Part shown: piece after piece, positions 5,743 through 34,678 of the stretch
Numbering within the stretch: position 1 is the stretch's first letter
How the letters are laid out: every line of letters begins with the position of its first letter
From: a virus
Virus genome (UHGV): UHGV-0126338
DNA length: 34,728 nt
Reading direction: 5' to 3' (one strand)
Position numbers and translations under genes: made by a program
Notes under the pieces: model-generated
What the model was told of the DNA's origin: nothing
The model's database searches: none
What the model saw: the letters and a program-made list of their open reading frames with translations, nothing else

Positions 5743-8153
5743 GTCATGCCGATATGAACAACTGCTGCGGCTTTAACGAAGCTGCCGCATCGTTCTCATG
5801 GAACAGCCCGAAAAAGGCCATTAACCCTTATCTGGACCCGGTGGAAGTTGCGCCGGTTTCTACGCTTTCAAACCTGATCACTCTGTACGCTGCCGATAAC
5901 GAGCAGGAACAGCTGCGCCGTGAGGCGCTGAGTGATCAGGTCTGGGAGCGTTATTTCTTTAATGAATCCCGTGATCCTGTCCAGCGCGAAATGGAACAGG
6001 ATAAGCTCATTAGTCGGGCAAAGCTGGCGCATGAGCAGCAGCGTTTTAATCCGGATATGGTCATTCTGGCGGACGTCAACGCCCAGCCTTCCCATATCAG
6101 CAAGCCGCTGATGCAACGTATTGAATACTTCAGCAGCCTGGGCAGGCCAAAGGCTTATTCCCGCTATTTACGTGAGACGATTAAGCCATGTCTGGAACGA
6201 CTGGAGCATGTACGCGACAGTCAGCTATCTGCATCTTTTCGCTTTATGGCAAGCCATGAAGGGCTGGACGGCCTGCTGATCCTGCCTGAAATGAGTCAGG
6301 ATCAGGTGAAACGCCTGTCCACCCTGGTAGCTGCGCATATGAGTATGTGCCTTGATGCCGCTTGTGGCGATTTGTATGCCACCGATGACGTTAAGCCAGA
6401 AGAAATCCGCAATACATGGGAAAGGGTGGCAGCGGAAACCCTGCGTCTGGATGTCATCCCGCCTGCGTTTGAGCAACTCCGTCGGAAAAGAAACCGCCGT
6501 AAACCCGTGCTCTATGAACTCATTCCGGGTTCGCTGGCGCGTATGTTGTGCGCCGACTGGTGGTATCGGAAATTATGGAAGATGCGTTGCGAATGGCGGG
6601 AAGAGCAGTTGCGTGCAGTCTGCCTTGTCAGCAAAAAAGCATCTCCTTATGTCAGCTATGAAGCCGTGATGCATAAACGTGAGCAGCGCCGTAAGTCGCT
6701 GGAGTTTTTCCGTTCTCATGAACTGGTGAACGAAGACGGCGACACGCTGGACATGGAGGATGTGGTAAACGCCAGCAGCAGCAACCCAGCGCATCGCCGC
6801 AATGAGATGATGGCCTGTGTTAAAGGTCTGGAGCTTATCGCGGAAATGCGCGGTGACTGCGCCGTTTTCTACACCATCACCTGTCCGTCACGTTTCCATT
6901 CCACGCTAAATAACGGCAGGCCCAACCCAACCTGGACAAATGCGACGGTAAGACAAAGCAGTGATTATCTGGTCGGCATGTTTGCTGCATTTCGTAAGGC
7001 GATGCACAAAGCCGGATTGCGGTGGTATGGCGTGCGGGTGGCTGAGCCGCATCATGACGGTACAGTTCACTGGCACCTGTTGTGTTTTATGCGCAAAAAA
7101 GACCGCCGCACCATCACTGCATTACTGCGTAAGTTTGCCATCCGTGAAGACCGCGAGGAGCTGGGCAATAACACTGGGCCGCGCTTTAAGTCTGAGTTGA
7201 TTAACCCGCGCAAAGGTACGCCAACAAGCTACATCGCGAAATACATCAGTAAGAACATTGACGGGCGTGGTCTGGCTGGCGAGATCAGCAAGGAAACGGG
7301 GAAATCCCTGCGTGATAATGCTGAATACGTTAATGCCTGGGCGTCTCTGCATCGTGTTCAGCAATTCCGCTTCTTTGGCATTCCGGGGCGTCAGGCTTAC
7401 CGTGAACTGCGATTGCTGGCTGGTCAGGCGGCAAGGCAACAGGGGGACAAAAAAGCAGGTGCGCCGGTACTGGATAACCCGCGCCTTGATGCCATTCTGG
7501 CTGCTGCTGATGCTGGTTGTTTTGCCACCTACATCATGAAGCAGGGTGGCGTACTGGTTCCCCGCAAATATCACCTCATCAGAACTGCTTATGAAATCAA
7601 CGAAGAGCCGACCGCCTATGGCGATCACGGCATTCGTATTTATGGCATCTGGTCACCTATTGCAGAGGGCAAGATCTGCACTCATGCCGTGAAGTGGAAA
7701 ATGGTTCGTAAGGCCGTTGACGTTCAGGAGGCGGCAGCCGACCAGGGCGCTTGCGCCCCTTGGACTCGTGGCAATAACTGTCCCCTTGCTGAAAATTTGA
7801 ACCAACAAGGGAAAGACAAATCAGCTGATGGGGATACCAGAACGGACATTACCCGCATGGATGACAAGGAGTTGCACGAATACCTGCACAGTATGAGCAA
7901 AAAAGAGCGCCGGGAACTGGCTGCAAGGTTACGCCTGGTGAAACCGAAACGGCGTAAAGACTACAAACAGCGAATTACAGACCATCAGCGACAGCAGCTC
8001 GTCTATGAACTGAAGTCCAGAGGATTTGATGGCAGCGAGAAAGAGGTCGATTTACTCCTTCGCGGCGGCAGTATTCCGTCAGGAGCAGGCCTGCGTATCT
8101 TCTATCGGAACCAGCGTTTGCAGGAAGATGATAAGTGGCGGAACCTGTATTAA
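5739..8153 (+). CDS. A: Replication initiation endonuclease (P2 gpA-like rolling-circle replicase)
   Basis: 804-aa ORF; motifs [11 protein letters not shown] and [12 protein letters not shown] match P2 A family from memory; start overlaps dam stop (ATGA). Confidence 0.9.
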
Positions 8154-13916: not shown

Positions 13917-14750
13917 ATGACAGTGAAAGCAAAGCGTTTTCGCATCGGGGTGGAAGGTGCCACCACCGACGGACGCGAAATCCAGCGTGAATGGCTGGAA
14001 CAGATGGCAGCCAGCTACAACCCGGCGGTGTATACCGCGCTGATTAACCTTGAGCACATCAAGTCTTATCTGCCGGACAGCACCTTTAACCGCTACGGCA
14101 AGGTGACGGCGCTGTTTGCTGAAGAAATCACGGAAGGTCCGCTGGCAGGCAAGATGGCGCTGTATGCCGACGTTGAGCCAACGGAGTCCCTGGTGGAACT
14201 GGTGAAAAAAGGCCAGAAATTATTCACCTCTATGGAAGTCAGCCCGAAGTTCGCTGATACGGGCAAAGCCTACCTGGTCGGCCTGGCTGCCACTGATGAC
14301 CCTGCCAGTCTGGGTACGGAAATGCTGACATTCAGCGCCAGTGCAGCCCATAACCCGCTGGCAAACCGCAAGCAGAATCCTGCCAATCTCTTTACCGCTG
14401 CAGAGGAAACGGTGATCGAACTGGAAGAAATCCAGGACGACAAACCGTCCCTGTTTGCCTGCGTCACGGCGCTGTTTACCAAAAAAGAGCAGTCCGATGA
14501 CGCCCGGTTCTCTGATGTGCATAAGGCCGTGGAGCTGGTCGCCACTGAGCAGCAGAACCTGAGCGCACGCACCGAAAAATCCCTGTCTGAGCAGGAAGAA
14601 CGTCTGTCTGAGCTGGAGACTGCCCTGCAGGCACAGCTGACCGCCTTTAACGAACTGGTGGACAAGCTGAGTCATGAAGACAGCCGCCAGGACTACCGCC
14701 AGCGTGCAACAGGCGGTAACGCCCCCGCTGACACTCTGACCAATTGCTGA
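13917..14750 (+). CDS. O: Capsid scaffolding protein (P2 gpO-like)
   Basis: 277 aa, first gene of the rightward head operon. Confidence 0.85.
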   Translation: MTVKAKRFRIGVEGATTDGREIQREWLEQMAASYNPAVYTALINLEHIKSYLPDSTFNRYGKVTALFAEEITEGPLAGKMALYADVEPTESLVELVKKGQKLFTSMEVSPKFADTGKAYLVGLAATDDPASLGTEMLTFSASAAHNPLANRKQNPANLFTAAEETVIELEEIQDDKPSLFACVTALFTKKEQSDDARFSDVHKAVELVATEQQNLSARTEKSLSEQEERLSELETALQAQLTAFNELVDKLSHEDSRQDYRQRATGGNAPADTLTNC

Positions 14751-27077: not shown

Positions 27078-27131
27078 GCAGAGATAACGGCTAACAGGCA
27101 TCATCTCCGGTTTTTATTCAGGGGGATGATC

Positions 27132-27698
27132 ATGCTTATTGGCTATGTACGCGTGTCAACAAATGACCAGAACACCGATTTGCAACGCAATGCACTGAAC
27201 TGTGCGGGATGTGAGCGGATTTTTGAGGATAAAATCAGTGGCACCAAGTCCGACAGACCGGGGCTGAAAAAGCTGCTCAGGACACTATCGGCAGGAGACA
27301 CTCTGGTTGTCTGGAAGCTGGACAGGTTGGGGCGCAGTATGCGGCATCTTGTTACGCTGATAGAAGAGTTGCGTCAGCGTGGCGTGAATTTCCGAAGCCT
27401 GACTGACAGTATTGATACCAGTACCCCAATGGGCCGTTTCTTTTTTCATGTCATGGGTGCCCTGGCTGAAATGGAACGCGAACTGATAGTTGAACGTACC
27501 AGGGCAGGGCTGGCTGCAGCTCGTGCCAAAGGCAGAGTAGGTGGACGCCGTCCTAAGTTGACCACCGAACAGTGGGCACAGATTGGGCGTTTACTCGAGG
27601 CCGGAGAATCAATACAGCGTATTGCACTGATTTTTGATGTAGGCGTTTCTACCATTTATAGAAAATTTCCGGCAAATAAGATCAATGAATCCCCCTGA
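27132..27698 (+). CDS. Serine DNA invertase (Gin/Hin/Pin/Cin family)
   Basis: MLIGYVRVSTNDQ... catalytic serine motif and C-terminal HTH; near-identical N-terminus to Mu Gin from memory; ORF 27126..27698 with ATG 27132 preferred. Confidence 0.9.
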   Translation: MLIGYVRVSTNDQNTDLQRNALNCAGCERIFEDKISGTKSDRPGLKKLLRTLSAGDTLVVWKLDRLGRSMRHLVTLIEELRQRGVNFRSLTDSIDTSTPMGRFFFHVMGALAEMERELIVERTRAGLAAARAKGRVGGRRPKLTTEQWAQIGRLLEAGESIQRIALIFDVGVSTIYRKFPANKINESP

Positions 27699-27840: not shown

Positions 27841-29013
27841 ATGGCTCAGGATTACCACCACGGGGTGCGCGTTGTTGAAGTCAACGAAGGCACCCGATCT
27901 ATTACCACGGTGAGCACCGCCATCGTGGGTATGGTCTGCACGGGCGATGATGCCGATGCAAAAATGTTTCCTCTTAATAAACCCGTGCTGATCACTGATG
28001 TGCTGACTGCCAGCGGTAAAGCGGGTGAGTCAGGTACTCTGGCCCGTTCGCTGGATGCCATCGCTGACCAGGCAAAACCCGTGACCATTGTTGTGCGTGT
28101 GCCGCAGGGTGAAACGGAAGACGAAACCACGACCAATATCATCGGCGCAGTGACTGCTGAAGGTAAAAAAACAGGTATGAAAGCCCTGTTATCTGCCCAG
28201 TCACAGCTCGGCGTTAAACCGCGCATTCTCGGCGTGCCAGGCCACGACACCAAGGCGGTAGCTACTGAGTTGCTGAGCGTGGCGCAAAGCCTGCGTGGAT
28301 TTGCTTACCTGTCAGCGTATGGCTGCAAGACAGTGCAGGAGGCGATCACTTACCGCGAAAACTTCAGCCAGCGCGAAGGGATGCTGATCTGGCCTGACTT
28401 TACTGGCTGGGACACGGTGCTGAATGCCGAAGCAACGGCATATGCCACCGCCCGTGCGCTTGGTCTGCGCGCCAAAATTGACGAGCAGACCGGATGGCAC
28501 AAAAGCCTGTCCAACGTGGGCGTGAACGGTGTCACCGGAATTTCTGCAGATGTGTTCTGGGATCTGCAGGACCCGGCAACCGATGCAGGTCTGCTGAACC
28601 AGAACGACGTCACCACGCTTGTGCGTAAAGACGGTTTCCGCTTCTGGGGTTCCCGCTGCCTGAGTGATGACCCGCTCTTTGCCTTCGAAAACTACACCCG
28701 CACGGCGCAGGTGCTGATGGACACGATGGCAGAAGCACACATGTGGGCGGTGGATAAACCGCTTAACCCGTCGCTGGCCCGCGACATTATCGAAGGTATC
28801 CGCGCCAAAATGCGCAGCCTGGTCAGTCAGGGCTATCTCATTGGTGGTGATTGCTGGCTGGATGAGTCGGTGAACGACAAAGACACGCTGAAAGCCGGAA
28901 AACTCACCATCGACTACGACTACACGCCAGTGCCGCCACTTGAAAACCTGATGCTGCGTCAGCGCATCACCGATCAGTACCTGGTGAATTTCGCCAGCCA
29001 GGTCAGCGCGTAA
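27841..29013 (+). CDS. FI: Tail sheath protein (P2 gpFI-like)
   Basis: 390 aa, RBS AGGAGG, followed by tube gene. Confidence 0.9.
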
Positions 29014-29022
29014 GGGGACAAC

Positions 29023-29538
29023 ATGGCTTTACCACGCAAATTAAAACACCTGAACCTGTTTAACGACGGGAACAACTGGCAGGGGATCGTTGAGTCGCTG
29101 ACGCTGCCGAAATTTACCCGCAAATATGAGAAGTATCGCGGCGGCGGAATGCCGGGTGCGGTGGATGTGGATCTGGGGCTTGATGACAGTGCGCTGGACA
29201 CAGAATTTTCCATTGGTGGTACTGAATTGCTGCTGTTTAAACAGATGGGTAAAGCCACGGTGGATGGCATCCAGCTGCGCTTTACCGGCTCTATTCAGCG
29301 TGACGATACCGGGGAAGTGCAGGCCGTGGAGCTTGTCGTGCGTGGACGTCACAAAGAAGTGGATTCCGGCGAGTGGAAGACGGGCGAAAGCAACACCACC
29401 AAAGTGACCAGTACCAACAGCTACGCGAAGCTGACCATCAATGGTGAGGTGCTCTATGAAGTGGACCTTATCAACATGGTGGAAATTGTGGACGGTGTGG
29501 ACCTGATGGAAGCGCACCGCAACGCCCTCGGCCTCTGA
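29023..29538 (+). CDS. FII: Tail tube protein (P2 gpFII-like)
   Basis: 171 aa after sheath gene. Confidence 0.9.
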   Translation: MALPRKLKHLNLFNDGNNWQGIVESLTLPKFTRKYEKYRGGGMPGAVDVDLGLDDSALDTEFSIGGTELLLFKQMGKATVDGIQLRFTGSIQRDDTGEVQAVELVVRGRHKEVDSGEWKTGESNTTKVTSTNSYAKLTINGEVLYEVDLINMVEIVDGVDLMEAHRNALGL

Positions 29539-29592
29539 TATATCTGAACGGCGCGGGATACCGCGCCAGAACCCAATTGACAGGACAGCAAA

Positions 29593-29895
29593 ATGAGCGA
29601 TAAGCAGACTGAAAAGACCATTCAACTGGATACCCCCATCAAGCGCGGTAAAACAGAAATCACCGAAATTGTGCTGCGTAAACCGCAGTCCGGTGCGCTG
29701 CGCGGTACACGCCTGCAGGCCATTATGGATATGGATGTGAACGCGATGATGACCGTGATCCCCCGCATCTCCAGTCCGGCACTGACTGCACAGGAAATTG
29801 CAGAGATGGACCCGGCAGATCTCACTGCCATGTCGGTTGAGGTTGTCACTTTTTTGTTGAAGAAGTCGGTGCTTGCCGGTTTACCGACAGCCTGA
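29593..29895 (+). CDS. E: Tail assembly chaperone E (P2 gpE-like)
   Basis: 100 aa upstream of tape-measure gene; contains slippery heptamer TTTTTTG at 29850..29856. Confidence 0.8.
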   Translation: MSDKQTEKTIQLDTPIKRGKTEITEIVLRKPQSGALRGTRLQAIMDMDVNAMMTVIPRISSPALTAQEIAEMDPADLTAMSVEVVTFLLKKSVLAGLPTA

Positions 29896-30029
29896 CGGTT
29901 GACGATCTGGTGGCAGATATCGCCACCATTTTTCACTGGCCGCCATCCGTTACTGACGTTATGCCGCTGACCGAAGTGCTGGAATGGCGGTATAAAGCGA
30001 TTCAGAGAAGCGGGGCCAACGATGAGTGA
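29593..30029 (+). CDS. E+E' -1 programmed frameshift product (frame 0 29593..29855, -1 frame to stop at 30027..30029)
   Basis: T6G slippery site 29850..29856 near the end of E; the -1 frame is open for 58 codons (VEEVGACRFTDSLTVDDLVADIATIFHWPP...RSGANDE) and ends overlapping the T start codon. Confidence 0.6.
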
Positions 30030-33000
30030 TAACAACCTGCGTCTGCGGGTCATTCTTAATGCGGTTGACAAGCTCACCCGCCCATTTCGATCTGCGCAGG
30101 CCAGTTCAAGAGAACTGGCTGCTGCTGTCAAAAAATCCCGCGATGCAATAAAGCAGCTTGATCAGGCCGGGAGCAGTCTGGACAGCTTCCGAAAGCTGCA
30201 GGCAGAAAATCAGAAATTAGGCGACAGGCTGAACTATGCCCGCCAGCGTGCAAATTTGCTCAGTCAGGAACTGGGAGCGATGGGGCCGCCTTCGCAACGT
30301 CAGGTTGTTGCTCTGGGCCGTCAACGGCTGGCTGTTCAGCGCCTGGAAGAACGCCAGAAAAAGCTGCAGCAGCAGACGGCGCTTGTGCGTGCTGAACTGT
30401 ACCGGGCGGGAATTTCTGCGAAAGACGATGCGGGAGCAACTGCCCGTTTAGCCCGTGAAACATCACGTTATAACCAGGAACTTTCGAAACAGGAGGCGCG
30501 GCTGAAGCGACTGGGGGAAGCTCAGCGCAGGATGAATGCAGCGCGTGCCAGTTATGCCCGTTCGCTGGAGGTGCGTGATCGTATTGCAGGTGCCGGAGCC
30601 ACCACCACGGCTGCAGGGCTGGCAATGGGTGCGCCAGTGATGGCGGCAGTAAAAAGCTATACCAGCATGGAAGATGCCATGAAAGGTGTGGCAAAGCAGG
30701 TCAATGGTCTGCGTGACGATAATGGCAACCGCACTGCACGTTTTTATGAAATGCAGGATGCCATCAAGGCTGCCAGCGAACAGTTGCCGATGGAAAACGG
30801 TGCGGTGGACTTCGCTGCACTGGTTGAAGGTGGTGCGCGCATGAACGTCGCAAACCCTGACGACAGCTGGGAAGATCAGAAACGTGACCTGCTGGCCTTC
30901 GCCAGTACGGCAGCAAAGGCGGCAACAGCCTTTGAGCTGCCAGCGGATGAACTGTCAGAAAGTCTGGGGAAAATCGCCCAGCTCTACAAAATCCCCACCC
31001 GCAATATTGAACAGCTCGGTGATGCGCTGAACTATCTGGATGATAACGCCATGTCGAAAGGGGCAGACATCATTGATGTGATGCAACGTCTGGGCGGTGT
31101 GGCTGACCGTCTGGATTATCGTAAAGCGGCGGCGCTGGGTTCCACCTTCCTGACACTGGGCGCTGCGCCAGAGGTTGCAGCCAGTGCAGCAAACGCGATG
31201 GTGCGTGAATTGTCCATTGCCACCATGCAAAGCAAGAGTTTCTTTGAAGGGATGAATCTGCTGAAACTCAATCCTGAAGTGATTGAAAAGCAGATGACGA
31301 AGGATGCGATGGGAACCATCCAGCGCGTGCTGGAGAAGGTAAACGCGCTGCCGCAGGACAAGCGCCTGTCTGCCATGACTATGTTGTTTGGTAAAGAGTT
31401 TGGCGATGACGCGGCGAAACTGGCAAACAACCTGCCGGAACTGCAGCGTCAGTTAAAACTGACAGCGGGCAATGATGCGCTCGGCTCCATGCAGAAAGAA
31501 TCCGACATTAACAAGGATTCACTTTCTGCGCAGTGGTTGCTGGTCAAAACCGGAGCGCAGAACACCTTCAGCAGCCTGGGCGAAACGCTGCGCCAGCCGC
31601 TGATGGATATTCTGTACACGGTGAAAAGCGTCACGGGGGCGTTGCGTCGCTGGGTGGAAGCTAACCCGGAACTGACAGGCACACTGATGAAAGCATCGGC
31701 TGTTGTGGCTGCGGTTACCGTCGGCCTCGGCACCTTAGCGGTGGCGCTGGCTGCAGTGCTGGGGCCGCTGGCAGTGATCCGTCTGGGATTCTCTGTGTTG
31801 GGTATCAAAACGTTATCTTCCGTTACGGCAGCAGTAACTCGAACCAGCAGCGCGTTGTCCTGGCTGGCTGGCGCACCACTGGCACTGCTGCGACGCGGGC
31901 TTGCTTCATCGGGCAACGCCGCAGGTTTACTTACTGCGCCGTTGTCGTCTTTGCGCCGCACGGCATCACTGACGGGAAATGTCCTGAAAACTGTAGCAGG
32001 TGCGCCGGTTGCACTTTTGCGGTCTGGATTATCCGGTTTACGTGCTGTTGCTGTGATGTTTATGAATCCTCTGGCGGTACTGCGCGGTGGACTGGCCGCC
32101 GCAGGCACGGTGCTGCGAGTACTGGCATCTGGTCCACTGGCGATGCTGCGCGTTGCCCTGTATGCCATATCTGGTCTGTTAGGTGCTCTGCTCAGTCCGA
32201 TAGGTCTTGTGGTTACTGCACTGGCGGGCGTGGCGCTGGTTGTCTGGAAATACTGGCAACCCATCACCGCATTTCTCGGTGGCGTGGTGGAAGGATTCAA
32301 AGCGGCGGCAGGTCCCATCAGTGCAGCGTTCGAACCGCTTAAGCCCGTGTTCCAGTGGATTGGCGACAAAGTGCAGGCGCTGTGGGGCTGGTTTACTGAT
32401 CTGCTGACGCCCGTTAAGTCGACCTCTGCCGAACTGCAGAGCGCAGCGGCAATGGGGCGGCGATTCGGGGAGGCACTGGCGGAAGGGCTGAATATGGTCA
32501 TGCATCCGCTGGACTCCCTGAAATCCGGCGTTTCCTGGTTGCTGGAGAAGCTCGGCATTGTCAGTAAAGAGGCCGCAAAGGCAAAACTGCCGGAAAGCGT
32601 GACGCGTCAGCAACCTGCGACGGTGAATGCAGACGGTAAAGTGATGATGCCATCGGGTGGTTTTCCATCATGGGGATATGGCTTTGCGGGGATGTATGAC
32701 AGCGGCGGGTATATCCCGCGCGGGCAGTTTGGCATCGTCGGTGAAAACGGGCCGGAAATTGTTAACGGCCCGGCAAATGTGACCAGCCGGAGAAATACAG
32801 CTGCACTGGCTGCCGTTGTTGCCGGAATGATGGGCGTTGCTGCCGCGCCAGCAGAGCTTCCACCGTTGCACCCTTTGGCACTTCCCGCGAAAGGTGGAGA
32901 AGCAATTGTGAGTCGCGCAGCCACTGTGCCGCTCGTTCAACGGATTGAGGCACCGACGCAGATCATCATTCAGACGCAGCCAGGACAAAGTGCGCAGGAT

Positions 33001-33099
33001 ATTGCGCGGGAGGTGGCACGCCAGCTTGATGAACGTGAACGCAGGCTGAAGGCAAAAGCTAGGAGTAACTACAGCGATCAGGGGGGATACGACGCATGA
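30022..33099 (+). CDS. T: Tail tape measure protein (P2 gpT-like)
   Basis: 1025 aa, coiled-coil-rich N-terminus, internal degenerate Ala/Leu-rich repeats, largest tail gene. Confidence 0.9.
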   Translation: MSDNNLRLRVILNAVDKLTRPFRSAQASSRELAAAVKKSRDAIKQLDQAGSSLDSFRKLQAENQKLGDRLNYARQRANLLSQELGAMGPPSQRQVVALGRQRLAVQRLEERQKKLQQQTALVRAELYRAGISAKDDAGATARLARETSRYNQELSKQEARLKRLGEAQRRMNAARASYARSLEVRDRIAGAGATTTAAGLAMGAPVMAAVKSYTSMEDAMKGVAKQVNGLRDDNGNRTARFYEMQDAIKAASEQLPMENGAVDFAALVEGGARMNVANPDDSWEDQKRDLLAFASTAAKAATAFELPADELSESLGKIAQLYKIPTRNIEQLGDALNYLDDNAMSKGADIIDVMQRLGGVADRLDYRKAAALGSTFLTLGAAPEVAASAANAMVRELSIATMQSKSFFEGMNLLKLNPEVIEKQMTKDAMGTIQRVLEKVNALPQDKRLSAMTMLFGKEFGDDAAKLANNLPELQRQLKLTAGNDALGSMQKESDINKDSLSAQWLLVKTGAQNTFSSLGETLRQPLMDILYTVKSVTGALRRWVEANPELTGTLMKASAVVAAVTVGLGTLAVALAAVLGPLAVIRLGFSVLGIKTLSSVTAAVTRTSSALSWLAGAPLALLRRGLASSGNAAGLLTAPLSSLRRTASLTGNVLKTVAGAPVALLRSGLSGLRAVAVMFMNPLAVLRGGLAAAGTVLRVLASGPLAMLRVALYAISGLLGALLSPIGLVVTALAGVALVVWKYWQPITAFLGGVVEGFKAAAGPISAAFEPLKPVFQWIGDKVQALWGWFTDLLTPVKSTSAELQSAAAMGRRFGEALAEGLNMVMHPLDSLKSGVSWLLEKLGIVSKEAAKAKLPESVTRQQPATVNADGKVMMPSGGFPSWGYGFAGMYDSGGYIPRGQFGIVGENGPEIVNGPANVTSRRNTAALAAVVAGMMGVAAAPAELPPLHPLALPAKGGEAIVSRAATVPLVQRIEAPTQIIIQTQPGQSAQDIAREVARQLDERERRLKAKARSNYSDQGGYDA

Positions 33100-33581
33100 T
33101 GATGGTGCTGGGATTGTACGTGTTTATGCTGCGCACCGTTCCGTATCAGGAACTGCAGTATCAACGCAGCTGGCGACATGCGGCAAACAGTCGGGTAAAC
33201 CGACGTCCGTCTACGCAGTTTCTGGGACCGGAAAACGACATGCTGACGCTTTCCGGTGTTCTTATGCCGGAAATAACAGGCGGCAGGCTGTCGTTGCTGG
33301 CACTGGAGCAGATGGCAGAACAGGGGAAAGCATGGCCCCTGATTGAAGGCAGCGGCACGATTTACGGCATGTATGTGATTGAGGGACTGAATCAGACTAA
33401 AACGGAGTTTTTCCGCGATGGTATGCCGCGCCGGATTGAGTTCACCCTGTCGCTCAAACGGGTGGATGAATCCCTGTCCGATATGTTCGGTGATCTCAGT
33501 GCGCAGCTGAATAATTTGCAGGATACGACAACGTCTGCCTTAAGCGATATCAGTAAAACGGTGGGAGGGCTGCTGTCGTGA
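33096..33581 (+). CDS. U: Tail protein U (P2 gpU-like)
   Basis: 161 aa overlapping T stop. Confidence 0.85.
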   Translation: MMMVLGLYVFMLRTVPYQELQYQRSWRHAANSRVNRRPSTQFLGPENDMLTLSGVLMPEITGGRLSLLALEQMAEQGKAWPLIEGSGTIYGMYVIEGLNQTKTEFFRDGMPRRIEFTLSLKRVDESLSDMFGDLSAQLNNLQDTTTSALSDISKTVGGLLS

Positions 33582-34678
33582 ATTTCAGCTCTGAACTGCT
33601 TAACAAAGGCAACAAAACTCCGGCATTCAGCATCAGTATTGAGGGTAAGGATATCACCACTGTGCTGGATAACCGCCTGATGAGTCTGACGCTGACGGAC
33701 AATCGGGGCTTTGAAGCGGACCAGCTTGATCTGGAGCTGGACGACGCCGACGGAAAAATCGTGCTGCCGCGCCGTGGTGCGGTCATTACGCTGGCGTTGG
33801 GCTGGAAGGGGCAGTCGCTTTTCCCGAAAGGAGCATTCACGGTGGACGAGATTGAACACACTGGCGCACCGGACCGCCTGACTATCCGGGCGCGAAGTGC
33901 TGATTTTCGTGAAACCCTGAATATCCGCCGTGAAAAATCGTGGCACAAGACCACCGTTGGGGAAGTGGTGAAGGAAATAGCTGTGCGGCACAAACTGAAG
34001 ATGGCATTGGGTGAAGACCTGTCGGATAAACCTGTGGAGCATATAGACCAGACCAATGAGAGTGACGGCAGTTTTCTGATGCGGCTGGCGCGCCAGTACG
34101 GTGCTATTGCGTCGGTGAAAAATGGCAATCTGTTATTCATCCGGCAGGGACAGGGTAAAAGCGCCAGCGGTAAACCACTACCGGTTATCACTATCACACG
34201 TAAGGACGGCGACAGTCACCGCTTTACCCTGGCAGATCGCGGAGCCTACACGGGCGTAATTGCCAGCTGGTTGCATACCCGCGAACCCGCGAAGAAAGAA
34301 AGCACCACGGTGAAGCGTAAGCGCAGGACTAAGAAGCAGAAGAAAGAGCCGGAAGCGAAGCAGGGCGATTACCTGGTGGGTACAGATGAAAACGTGCTGG
34401 TACTTAATCGCACCTATGCCAACCGGAGCAACGCCGAACGGGCGGCGAAAATGCAGTGGGAACGCCTGCAACGTGGCGTTGCGTCATTCTCGCTACAACT
34501 GGCAGAAGGTCGGGCGGATCTCTACACGGAAATGCCAGTGAAAGTCAGAGGCTTTAAACAGCCGATAGATGATGCGGAATGGACTATTACCACCCTGACG
34601 CATACTGTCAATCCGGATAACGGTTTTACGACCAGTCTGGAGCTTGAAGTGAAGATTAATGATTTCGAAATGGAATGA
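33578..34678 (+). CDS. D: Tail protein D (P2 gpD-like)
   Basis: 366 aa, last tail gene in window. Confidence 0.85.
   Translation: MNFSSELLNKGNKTPAFSISIEGKDITTVLDNRLMSLTLTDNRGFEADQLDLELDDADGKIVLPRRGAVITLALGWKGQSLFPKGAFTVDEIEHTGAPDRLTIRARSADFRETLNIRREKSWHKTTVGEVVKEIAVRHKLKMALGEDLSDKPVEHIDQTNESDGSFLMRLARQYGAIASVKNGNLLFIRQGQGKSASGKPLPVITITRKDGDSHRFTLADRGAYTGVIASWLHTREPAKKESTTVKRKRRTKKQKKEPEAKQGDYLVGTDENVLVLNRTYANRSNAERAAKMQWERLQRGVASFSLQLAEGRADLYTEMPVKVRGFKQPIDDAEWTITTLTHTVNPDNGFTTSLELEVKINDFEME

What the first reader, a model, noticed from the sequence alone, without database searches (positions are those of the whole stretch)
29850..30029. Programmed -1 frameshift site (T6G) generating E' upstream of the tape-measure gene
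The heptamer TTTTTTG at 29850..29856 lies 13 codons before the E stop. The -1 frame from that point is open for 58 codons and ends at a TGA (30027..30029) overlapping the T start codon. This is the conserved P2 E/E' arrangement, analogous to lambda G/GT.
Basis: partly seen in the sequence, partly recalled or inferred. Interest (0 to 1): 0.45.

Follow-up and report, generated by a model that had tools for sequence, protein, structure and literature searches.

The report
P2-type tail chaperone frameshift site
This is the well-known ribosomal slip site of P2-like phages: a fraction of ribosomes slip back one base near the end of tail gene E and make a longer protein, E+E', needed to build the tail. 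It is real and strongly conserved, but ordinary.

Summary
TTTTTTG lies at 29850-29856 in the register T_TTT_TTG of a 100-codon ORF (29593-29895). The -1 frame then runs 57 sense codons to TGA 30027-30029, 8 nt into the tape-measure gene (ATG 30022). The upstream ORF is a Phage_TAC_7 / P2 gpE homologue and the -1 extension is a Phage_P2_GpE (E') domain. They sit between the tail tube gene and the tape-measure gene.

All 100 related loci examined keep E' in the -1 frame with an in-register X_XXY_YYZ heptamer at the same place. It is usually T_TTT_TTG. Other lineages carry C_CCT_TTC, G_GGA_AAG, T_TTT_TTC, A_AAT_TTT, T_TTT_TTT or T_TTT_TTA.

Across 62 unique relatives, wobble variability switches from frame 0 to frame -1 at the site. 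The synonymous positions inside the heptamer never vary.

The window matches a Peduoviridae prophage (99.8% to Escherichia phage 500465-1) found in about 18% of complete E. coli genomes. Public records annotate E' as a separate 39-aa gene, which is most likely wrong.

I found no convincing 3' stimulatory RNA structure. A Shine-Dalgarno-like GAGG lies 7 nt upstream but cannot be separated from protein constraint.

Verdict: confirmed, already known, low interest.

The parts
29593..29895 (+). Gene E (tail assembly chaperone, zero-frame product, 100 aa). An AGGA ribosome-binding site lies at 29582-29585.
   Evidence: ORF and translation. Pfam PF10109 Phage_TAC_7, E=1e-18. PHROG 103 'tail protein', E=4e-44. 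44% identical to P2 gpE by tblastn.
29850..29856 (+). Slippery heptamer T_TTT_TTG (Thr86 wobble, Phe87, Leu88), the site of the -1 shift.
   Evidence: Register read. Same heptamer at the same aligned position as the annotated P2 site. T29850 and T29853, both synonymous positions, are invariant in 62 of 62 unique relatives while the neighbouring wobble sites vary. Position 29856 is G or A only.
29856..30029 (+). E' reading frame (-1 relative to E): 57 sense codons plus TGA. The predicted fusion CDS is join(29593..29856, 29856..30029), giving a 145-aa E+E'.
   Evidence: Translation. Pfam PF06528 Phage_P2_GpE, E=4e-19. PHROG 1756 and 6416. 56% identical to P2 E' over all 57 residues, starting at the slip site. 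Wobble periodicity is in frame -1 from the E stop onward, including the 15 nt before the annotated GTG.
29857..29892 (+). Overlap zone read in both frames: the tail of E in frame 0 and the start of E' in frame -1.
   Evidence: Variability is suppressed at all three codon positions (entropy 0.15/0.13/0.27). 8 of 12 frame -1 wobble sites and 5 of 12 frame 0 wobble sites are invariant, against 14 of 44 and 10 of 85 outside the overlap.
29910..30029 (+). The 39-aa 'GpE family phage tail protein' CDS (GTG start) as annotated in public records of near-identical phages and prophages. Here it is read as the C-terminal part of E+E', not as an independent gene.
   Evidence: Annotations. No Shine-Dalgarno sequence in the 20 nt before the GTG. 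The residue at this position is Ala, Trp or Ile in distant homologues.
29839..29843 (+). Shine-Dalgarno-like GAGGT, with its GAGG core ending 7 nt 5' of the heptamer. Candidate upstream stimulator, not established.
   Evidence: In the anti-SD duplex scan only 0.5% of the other 9-nt windows in the 218 nt of E further upstream bind as strongly. The mean profile over 18 lineages has its minimum 11 nt before the heptamer. G29841 is invariant, and this is the only Glu codon of E fixed as GAG. It is not stronger than synonymous recodings of the same peptide.
29023..29538 (+). Tail tube gene (FII), the upstream neighbour.
   Evidence: Pfam PF04985 Phage_tube, E=9e-60.
30022..33099 (+). Tape-measure gene (T). 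Its first 8 nt overlap the end of E' (ATGAGTGA).
   Evidence: Pfam PF10145, E=2e-18. TIGR01760 tape_meas_TP901, E=1e-92. The overlap is read, and the same ATGAGTRA junction occurs in P2, PSP3, SEN8 and others.

Best explanation
This is a programmed -1 ribosomal frameshift of the P2 E/E+E' type, in a P2-like (Peduoviridae) prophage.

**Default outcome.** Most ribosomes translating gene E read through T_TTT_TTG and stop 13 codons later, giving the 100-aa E protein.

**Frameshift outcome.** A minority of ribosomes shift while tRNA-Phe sits on UUU (P site) and tRNA-Leu on UUG (A site). Both tRNAs slip one base 5' and re-pair with UUU UUU. Translation then continues in the -1 frame from GTT at 29856 for 57 more codons. 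The product is a 145-aa E+E' with the same N-terminus and a different C-terminal domain, the conserved ADIAxIFHWPP...WR...RSG motif. Its stop lies 8 nt inside the tape-measure gene.

**Function (inferred).** By analogy with lambda G/GT and from the genetics reported for P2, E and E+E' act as tail assembly chaperones in a fixed ratio. The shared E part binds the tape-measure protein. The E' domain recruits the tube protein. Neither is expected in the finished virion.

**What is shown here:** the sequence signal, homology of both frames, conservation of the arrangement, selection on the heptamer nucleotides, and the switch of coding frame at the site.

**What is inferred:** that the shift is ribosomal, its efficiency (about 10% in P2, from my memory of the abstract of Christie et al. 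2002, which I could not open; PMC5009743 says 2-3 fold above lambda), and the chaperone mechanism.
For: 1. **Register and ORF geometry** were read directly.
2. **Family hits.** Pfam PF10109 on E and PF06528 on the -1 frame, both far above their gathering scores. The flanks are tail tube and tape-measure genes.
3. **Spread in phages.** tblastn of the fusion found 425 phage records, and 388 cover at least 80% of it in two pieces. P2, L-413C, PSP3 and KL3 annotate it as a -1 frameshift product.
4. **Frame conservation.** E' is in the -1 frame in 20 of 20 GenBank loci and 80 of 80 IMG/VR loci.
5. **Heptamer conservation.** An in-register X_XXY_YYZ heptamer sits at the homologous position in all of them. 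Among the 80 IMG/VR loci, 73 have T_TTT_TTG and 7 have T_TTT_TTA. More distant lineages have C_CCT_TTC, G_GGA_AAG, T_TTT_TTC, A_AAT_TTT and T_TTT_TTT. These differ in sequence but all obey the tandem-slippage rule.
6. **Frame switch in variability.** Across 62 unique relatives at 77-99.8% identity, mean entropy at frame-0 positions 1/2/3 is 0.19/0.10/0.80 in the E body. After the E stop it is 0.02/0.69/0.15 before the annotated GTG, and 0.07/0.40/0.17 within the annotated 39-aa ORF. The variable position has moved to the frame -1 wobble.
7. **Frame switch in substitutions.** Against SEN8, substitutions at frame-0 codon positions 3/1/2 go from 30/7/4 in the E body to 5/2/11 in the extension, chi-square P=1.5e-4.
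8. **Selection on the heptamer.** The synonymous sites T29850 and T29853 never vary, while the nearby wobble sites 29838, 29844 and 29847 are highly variable.
9. **Literature.** In P2 the -1 shift at TTTTTTG gives a 91-aa E and a 142-aa E+E' (PMC3091744, citing Christie 2002 and Xu 2004). PMC5009743 describes the lambda G/GT model and the higher efficiency in P2-like phages.
Against: - No protein-level evidence exists for this particular phage.
- Public annotations of near-identical sequences call E' a separate 39-aa gene starting at GTG 29910.
- U_UUU_UUG is not among the efficient heptamers in E. coli reporter assays (PMC4066793).
- No clear stimulatory element was found. The 3' folds are not significant (z -1.7 to -2.0) and are not conserved. 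Rfam has no match.
- Sequence alone cannot fully separate ribosomal slippage from transcriptional slippage on the T6 run.
Confidence: 0.92

Rival explanations
1. E' is an independent small gene, translated from GTG 29910 as a 39-aa protein, as GenBank and RefSeq annotate it. No frameshift is involved.
For: GTG 29910-29912 is invariant in 62 close relatives. Annotation pipelines call this CDS 'GpE family phage tail protein' in about 1000 E. coli genomes and several phage records. The Pfam PF06528 model (37 positions) covers only the part downstream of the GTG.
Against: - No Shine-Dalgarno sequence lies in the 20 nt before the GTG.
- The -1 frame shows coding periodicity upstream of the GTG, and variability is suppressed back to the heptamer.
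- P2 E' aligns at 56% identity over all 57 residues, beginning at the slip site. PHROG 1756 also covers the part before the GTG.
- The equivalent residue is Ala (Ralstonia), Trp (Vibrio) or Ile (Acidovorax, Mannheimia) in distant homologues, so there is no conserved start there.
- This model does not explain the invariant in-register heptamer.
- Published work on P2, cited in PMC3091744, reports the fusion.
Confidence: 0.03
2. The same fusion protein is made, but by transcriptional slippage. RNA polymerase adds one extra U on the T6 run, so a subset of mRNAs carries E and E' in one frame.
For: A homopolymer run lies at the site. An mRNA with one extra U would give nearly the same product. Sequence analysis alone cannot exclude this for the T6 and T7 variants.
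Against: Homologous sites in other lineages are C_CCT_TTC, G_GGA_AAG and A_AAT_TTT. These have no long homopolymer run yet still satisfy the two-tRNA re-pairing rule, and the register relative to frame 0 is always kept. From established knowledge, efficient transcriptional slippage in bacteria generally needs runs of about 9 or more A or T; six is short.
Confidence: 0.04
3. The heptamer and the open -1 frame are a coincidence or a decayed remnant, and only E is made.
For: TTTTTTG alone is common in the window (22 copies). A 57-codon open off-frame stretch is not rare in itself.
Against: The -1 frame hits a curated Pfam family at E=4e-19. It is conserved with codon-periodic substitutions in 100 of 100 loci across several bacterial classes.
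Confidence: 0.01

Closest known systems
Bacteriophage P2 gpE / gpE+E' programmed -1 frameshift (Christie et al. 2002; GenBank AF063097 features E, E+E')
   Same: - Identical heptamer T_TTT_TTG at the same aligned position.
- The same GFL/TFL junction residues.
- The same 57-codon E' extension.
- The same ATGAGTRA overlap with gene T.
- The same FI-FII-E-E'-T-U-D order.
- Both frames are homologous: 44% identity in E, 56% in E'.
   Different: - E here is 100 aa against 91 aa in P2, because the zero-frame stop is 13 rather than 7 codons after the TTG.
- The fusion is 145 aa against 142 aa.
- The phage belongs to another genus (Wadgaonvirus-like) and carries a DNA invertase upstream of FI.
- The small hairpin just 3' of the P2 heptamer (CGCCGAACUCGGUG) is absent here.
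Lambda gpG / gpGT tail assembly chaperone frameshift (Levin 1993; Xu, Hendrix, Duda 2004, 2013, 2014)
   Same: - Two overlapping ORFs lie between the major tail or tube gene and the tape-measure gene.
[quoted passage not shown]
- The presumed role is chaperoning the tape-measure protein and recruiting tube subunits (PMC5009743).
- One relative (Mannheimia phage) even uses lambda's heptamer G_GGA_AAG.
   Different: - No sequence similarity. The only Pfam hits are PF10109 and PF06528, not the lambda G or T families.
- The tail is contractile.
- The heptamer is different.
- Reported efficiency in P2-like phages is 2-3 fold higher (PMC5009743).
E. coli dnaX -1 frameshift signal (A_AAA_AAG with an upstream SD-like sequence and a 3' hairpin)
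   Same: An X_XXY_YYZ heptamer in a bacterial mRNA, with a possible SD-like GAGG(U) upstream. The GAGG lies within the 6-17 nt range in which such elements have been shown to stimulate (PMC4066793).
   Different: - There is no supported 3' hairpin.
- The SD-like element is not separable from the Glu-Val codons.
- The frameshift product here is longer than the zero-frame product, not shorter.

Membership tests
P2-type E/E+E' tail chaperone frameshift (Peduoviridae) | The gene pair lies between the tail tube gene (FII) and the tape-measure gene (T). | tested here: met
   Pfam Phage_tube at 29023-29538. PhageMin_Tail and TIGR01760 at 30022-33099.
P2-type E/E+E' tail chaperone frameshift (Peduoviridae) | The upstream ORF is homologous to gpE (Pfam PF10109 Phage_TAC_7). 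| tested here: met
   E=1e-18, 67.5 bits against a cut-off of 25. 44% identity to P2 gpE.
P2-type E/E+E' tail chaperone frameshift (Peduoviridae) | An ORF in the -1 frame overlaps the 3' end of E and is homologous to E' (Pfam PF06528 Phage_P2_GpE). | tested here: met
   E=4e-19, 68.2 bits against a cut-off of 23. 56% identity to P2 E' from the slip site onward.
P2-type E/E+E' tail chaperone frameshift (Peduoviridae) | A slippery heptamer X_XXY_YYZ (T_TTT_TTG in P2), in zero-frame register, lies inside the window where both frames are open. | tested here: met
   T_TTT_TTG at 29850-29856. Both frames are open over 29841-29892.
P2-type E/E+E' tail chaperone frameshift (Peduoviridae) | The arrangement is conserved in relatives, with purifying selection in frame -1 after the site. 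| tested here: met
   100 of 100 loci. Phase switch of wobble variability.
P2-type E/E+E' tail chaperone frameshift (Peduoviridae) | The fusion protein is actually produced (about 10% in P2) and E' is essential for tail assembly. | not testable with these tools
   Needs a reporter assay, proteomics or genetics. For P2 itself I know this only from the literature (cited in PMC3091744 and PMC5009743).
Lambda G/GT family (sequence family) | Sequence homology to lambda gpG and the gpT domain. | tested here: not met
   The Pfam scan at E<=0.01 returned only PF10109 and PF06528. The resemblance is one of arrangement and role only.
dnaX-type stimulated -1 frameshift signal | A functional SD-like sequence upstream of the heptamer. 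| tested here: inconclusive
   GAGG at 29839-29842 is among the strongest anti-SD matches in the upstream part of E (only 0.5% of the other upstream windows bind as strongly), and an equivalent element recurs in most lineages. G29841 is invariant. Synonymous recoding of the same peptide gives equally strong sites (combined P=0.23).
dnaX-type stimulated -1 frameshift signal | A stable, conserved hairpin or pseudoknot 5-9 nt 3' of the heptamer. | tested here: not met
   The best local fold is -12.3 kcal/mol, z -1.7; the 84-nt fold has z -2.0. There are no compensatory changes in 62 relatives. No common structure appears across 18 lineages. Rfam gives no match.

The most novel reading that the evidence does not exclude
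P2-like phages may boost frameshifting on U_UUU_UUG with a conserved Shine-Dalgarno-like element, (G/A)AGGU(G), about 7 nt upstream of the heptamer.

U_UUU_UUG is not among the efficient heptamers in E. coli reporter assays. The element is embedded in the Glu/Lys-Val codons and would pair with the 16S rRNA 3' end as in dnaX. This could explain the reported efficiency of about 10% in the absence of any 3' RNA structure.

In the window the element is GAGGT at 29839-29843. I found no description of such an element for P2 in the papers I could read. I could not open Christie et al. 2002, so I cannot say it has never been noted.
Probability: 0.25. Interest if true: 0.3.

Novelty: already known. Interest (0 to 1): 0.1.

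Why it matters
Scientifically it adds little. The E/E+E' frameshift of P2 and its conservation in P2-like phages have been published since 2002-2004, and this window is a common E. coli/Klebsiella prophage.

The practical value is for annotation. Near-identical DNA occurs in 998 of 5426 complete E. coli genomes and in many phage records. In the records inspected (the ten best E. coli matches and most of the phage entries opened) it is annotated as two separate genes: 'phage tail assembly protein' plus a 39-aa 'GpE family phage tail protein'. The correct form is E plus a 145-aa frameshift product, join(29593..29856, 29856..30029).

A small open point is how a heptamer of modest intrinsic shiftiness in E. 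coli reaches the efficiency reported for P2 without a 3' structure. The upstream SD-like element is a testable candidate.

Tried and rejected
1. **3' stimulatory structure.**
   - Folds of 29857-29940 (z -2.0) and 29857-29896 (z -1.7) were not significant.
   - The candidate stem GUCGGU (29865-29870) / ACCGAC (29883-29888) has no compensatory changes in 62 relatives. 12 sequences break one pair and 4 break another.
   - No shared fold appears across 18 lineages.
   - Rejected as unsupported.
2. **Rfam scan of 29500-30200 at E<=1.** Nothing found.
3. **SD-like upstream stimulator.**
   - The positional signal is clear.
   - A synonymous-recoding control shows the peptide itself largely dictates it (Fisher combined P=0.23).
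   - Kept only as a lead.
4. **Other candidate sites in the window.**
   - The in-register heptamers with long -1 extensions at 6633 (+) and 14480-14486 (-) fall in spurious ORFs nested inside or antisense to real genes.
   - Rejected.
5. **Structure prediction of the fusion.** I did not pursue E or E' alone.
6. **PDB sequence search with the family profile.** No meaningful hit; best E=0.076.
7. **NCBIfam.** No model hit E, E' or the fusion.
9. **Christie et al. 2002 (PMC135442).** Not held in the library, so its content is cited second-hand or from memory.

Full report
**1. Observation**

The sequence is as described.
- TTTTTTG is at 29850-29856.
- The ORF containing it runs 29593-29895: ATG start, 100 aa, TGA stop, with AGGA 7 nt before the ATG.
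- Base 29850 is the wobble base of ACT (Thr86), followed by TTT (Phe87) and TTG (Leu88). The zero-frame register is therefore T_TTT_TTG, the X_XXY_YYZ form that lets P- and A-site tRNAs re-pair after a one-base backward slip.
- TTG is 13 codons before the stop.
- The -1 frame has a TGA at 29838-29840 and is open from 29841.
- From GTT at 29856 it runs 57 sense codons to TGA 30027-30029.
- The next gene starts at ATG 30022, so the junction reads ATGAGTGA. The E' frame overlaps the next ORF by 8 nt. The TGA does not itself overlap the ATG, which is a small correction to the finding.

**2. Is it more than chance?**

The heptamer alone is not significant. It occurs 22 times in the window on both strands, against 10.2 expected.

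I listed every in-register X_XX(A/T)_(A/T)(A/T)N heptamer in ORFs of at least 100 codons.
- Five of the 40 have a -1 frame that runs past the zero-frame stop.
- Besides the E site, only two carry an A6 or T6 run plus a long -1 extension. Both, at 6633 (+) and 14480-14486 (-), lie in spurious ORFs nested in or antisense to real genes.
- I did not check the remaining two, which are weaker heptamers in short minus-strand ORFs or extend only 14 nt.

The decisive evidence is that the -1 frame encodes a conserved protein domain and that the whole arrangement is conserved.

**3. What the two frames encode**

- E matches Pfam PF10109 (Phage_TAC_7, 'tail assembly chaperone proteins E, or 41 or 14'), E=1e-18.
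- The 57-residue -1 extension matches PF06528 (Phage_P2_GpE), E=4e-19.
- Both are far above their gathering scores. PHROGs agrees, with families 103, 1756 and 6416, all in the 'tail' category.
- The neighbours are tail sheath (27841-29013), tail tube (29023-29538), tape measure (30022-33099; TIGR01760 E=1e-92), gpU (33096-33581) and gpD (33578-34678). This is the P2 FI-FII-E-T-U-D operon order.

**4. Identity of the window**

- The tube-E-E'-T segment is 99.8% identical to Escherichia phage 500465-1 (NC_049342; Peduoviridae, Wadgaonvirus) and to Klebsiella phage KP12. It is about 93% identical to many Klebsiella prophage-derived records.
- The first 25 kb match other P2-like phages at 96-97%.
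- The 561-bp E/E' segment is found in 998 of 5426 complete E. coli genomes, with five perfect matches listed.
- In these records E' is annotated as a separate 39-aa CDS, 'GpE family phage tail protein', equivalent to window 29910-30029 with a GTG start. It is not annotated as a frameshift product.
- By contrast, P2 (AF063097), L-413C, PSP3 and Burkholderia phage KL3 annotate E+E' as a joined CDS with a -1 frameshift.

**5. Conservation of the arrangement**

tblastn with the predicted 145-aa fusion found 425 phage records. In 388 of them the match covers at least 80% of the fusion in two pieces, which indicates a frame change.

I fetched 17 loci of diverse phages for the comparison, plus 3 near-identical records and 80 IMG/VR loci.
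- In all 100, E' is in the -1 frame relative to E.
- In all 100, an in-register X_XXY_YYZ heptamer lies in the stretch where both frames are open, at the aligned position.
- Among the 80 IMG/VR loci, 73 have T_TTT_TTG and 7 have T_TTT_TTA.
- Distant lineages have C_CCT_TTC (Klebsiella ST16-OXA48phi5.4), G_GGA_AAG (Mannheimia; the record itself notes a slippery sequence), T_TTT_TTC (Vibrio MAR), A_AAT_TTT (Escherichia phage 503458) and T_TTT_TTT (Zymomonas).

These sequences differ but all obey the same re-pairing rule. That is what selection for tandem ribosomal slippage predicts. It argues against polymerase stuttering on a homopolymer as the general mechanism.

The fusion proteins align across the junction (…V-x-G/T-F-L | …). 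They share the E' motif DDL-x-ADIA-x-IFHWPP…EL-x-x-WR-x-x-A-x-x-RSG.

**6. Selection at nucleotide level**

I used 62 unique ungapped relatives at 77-99.8% identity to the window. Mean column entropy at frame-0 codon positions 1/2/3:

| Region | Pos 1 | Pos 2 | Pos 3 |
|---|---|---|---|
| E body | 0.19 | 0.10 | 0.80 |
| Dual-coded overlap, 29857-29892 | 0.15 | 0.13 | 0.27 |
| 15 nt between the E stop and the annotated GTG | 0.02 | 0.69 | 0.15 |
| Annotated 39-aa ORF (29911-30026) | 0.07 | 0.40 | 0.17 |

Frame-0 position 2 is frame -1 position 3. The wobble signal therefore jumps from frame 0 to frame -1 at the site, and it is already in frame -1 upstream of the annotated start codon.

Pairwise against SEN8, substitutions at frame-0 positions 3/1/2 are 30/7/4 in the E body and 5/2/11 in the extension (chi-square P=1.5e-4).

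Inside the heptamer, the two synonymous sites T29850 (ACN) and T29853 (TTY) are invariant. Position 29856 is only G or A. The wobble sites just upstream (29838, 29844, 29847) have entropies of 1.1-1.4. The heptamer is under selection as a nucleotide sequence.

**7. Mechanism**

*Shown:* the signal, both coding frames, and their conservation.

*Inferred from established knowledge of -1 frameshifting and from the published P2 work:*
- With tRNA-Phe on UUU in the P site and tRNA-Leu on UUG in the A site, both tRNAs slip one base 5' onto UUU UUU. Decoding resumes at GUU (29856).
- This yields …VVTFL-VEEVGACRF…GANDE, 145 aa.
- In P2 the same heptamer gives a 91-aa E and a 142-aa E+E' (PMC3091744, citing Christie 2002 and Xu 2004).
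- The review PMC5009743 states that efficiency in P2 and its relatives is 2-3 fold above lambda's. My recollection of the Christie 2002 abstract is about 10%, with E' essential. I could not open that paper.

*Function, by analogy with lambda G/GT (PMC5009743):*
- The shared N-terminal part coats the tape-measure protein.
- The frameshift-encoded domain binds the tube subunit and nucleates tube polymerisation.
- Both leave the structure, so neither is in the virion.
Lysate is the right material.

**8. Stimulatory elements**

*No supported 3' structure.*
- Folds downstream of the heptamer are unremarkable: -28.4 kcal/mol with z -2.0 for 84 nt, and -12.3 kcal/mol with z -1.7 for 40 nt.
- The candidate stem at 29865-29870 / 29883-29888 shows no compensatory change and is broken in 16 of 62 relatives.
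- There is no common fold across 18 lineages, and Rfam finds nothing.
- This matches published statements for P2 and the Burkholderia phages (PMC3091744).

*A possible upstream SD-like element.*
- An anti-Shine-Dalgarno duplex scan shows that the 9-nt window starting 10-13 nt 5' of the heptamer binds more strongly than every window in the 218 nt of E further upstream in about half of the lineages. These include P2, SEN8, ST11-VIM1phi8.4, PSP3, YenM_201.16, Ralstonia, phiCTX and SEN4, with Acidovorax at -14. In the window only 0.5% of the upstream windows bind as strongly. The 18-lineage mean profile has its minimum at -11.
- In the window the element is GAGGT at 29839-29843.
- G29841 is invariant in the 62 relatives. 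This is the only Glu codon of E fixed as GAG, while the others are mostly GAA.
- SD-like elements 6-17 nt upstream are known to stimulate -1 shifting, and U_UUU_UUG is not among the efficient heptamers in E. coli assays (PMC4066793).
- However, recoding the same eight codons synonymously with local codon usage gives equally strong anti-SD matches often enough (per-lineage P 0.04-0.98; Fisher combined P=0.23). The signal therefore cannot be separated from the Glu/Lys-Val-Val/Ile-Gly peptide. I keep it as a lead only.

**9. Rival explanations**

- **Independent initiation at GTG 29910**, the database annotation. Against it: no SD before the GTG, coding constraint upstream of it, P2 E' homology that begins at the slip site, non-start residues at that position in distant homologues (Ala, Trp, Ile), and the conserved heptamer.
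- **Transcriptional slippage.** It cannot be excluded for T6 by sequence alone. It is unlikely given the short run and the non-homopolymeric variants.
- **Chance.** Excluded by the comparative data.

**10. Comparison with the known, and verdict**

This is a member of the P2 E/E+E' family on every criterion that sequence can test. Only protein production and essentiality remain untested. It is functionally analogous to lambda G/GT but is not homologous to it by sequence. It does not meet the dnaX-type definition, because there is no 3' hairpin and the SD-like element is inconclusive.

It is already known biology in a very common prophage. Interest is low. The useful by-products are the correction of a widespread annotation habit and a testable idea about an upstream stimulator.

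Noticed in passing
window 29910-30029; L001 3888-4007; L002 2388-2507; E. coli genomes: In the near-identical public records inspected, including the ten best RefSeq PGAP matches among 998 E. coli genomes, E' is annotated as a stand-alone 39-aa 'GpE family phage tail protein' with a GTG start. The -1 frameshift product E+E' is not annotated. The comparative data indicate this is a recurrent mis-annotation.
   Followed up: yes
window 29839-29843 (GAGGT), 6-7 nt 5' of the heptamer: A Shine-Dalgarno-like sequence sits at a fixed distance upstream of the slip site, and an equivalent element recurs in most P2-like lineages examined. Only 0.5% of other upstream windows in the window's E gene bind the anti-SD as strongly. 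G29841 is invariant in 62 relatives. A synonymous-recoding control could not separate it from the encoded Glu-Val peptide.
   Followed up: partly
window 29550-29567 (FII-E intergenic region): A strong GC hairpin, GGCGCGG-GAUA-CCGCGCC (-17.4 kcal/mol, z -3.1), lies between the tube gene stop and the E start, with no U-tract after it. A 'rho-independent terminator' is annotated at the same intergenic position in Mannheimia phage 587AP1 (L015 556-577). It may lower or stabilise expression of E-T-U-D relative to sheath and tube.
   Followed up: partly
window 29908-29933 (inside E'): A terminator-like hairpin, UGGUGGC-AGAUAUC-GCCACCA followed by UUUUU, lies inside the E' coding sequence (z -2.5). 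The three wobble positions in the stem (29912, 29924, 29927) are invariant in 62 relatives, while the three in the loop vary. With 32% of wobble sites invariant in the background, that is about P=0.03. The U-tract is broken in 25 of 62, and the annotated GTG start lies in the 5' arm. No function is assigned.
   Followed up: partly
L012 852, L015 894, L016 834, L018 855, L019 852 (locus coordinates of the heptamers): Distant members of the family replace T_TTT_TTG with C_CCT_TTC, G_GGA_AAG (lambda's heptamer), T_TTT_TTC, A_AAT_TTT or T_TTT_TTT at the equivalent place. This is a natural series of alternative slippery sites for one homologous gene pair.
   Followed up: partly
window 27126-27698: A Hin/Gin-type serine DNA invertase gene (Resolvase plus HTH_7) lies just upstream of the sheath gene. 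In the closest phage record it is next to tail-fibre and fibre-assembly genes in both orientations. This suggests an invertible host-range segment.
   Followed up: no
whole window, both strands: TTTTTTG is over-represented in the window: 22 copies against 10.2 +/- 3.0 in dinucleotide-preserving shuffles, and none of 100 shuffles reached 22. Apart from the E site, and the two spurious-ORF cases at 6633 (A_AAA_AAG) and 14480-14486 (T_TTT_TTG), I did not examine these copies.
   Followed up: partly
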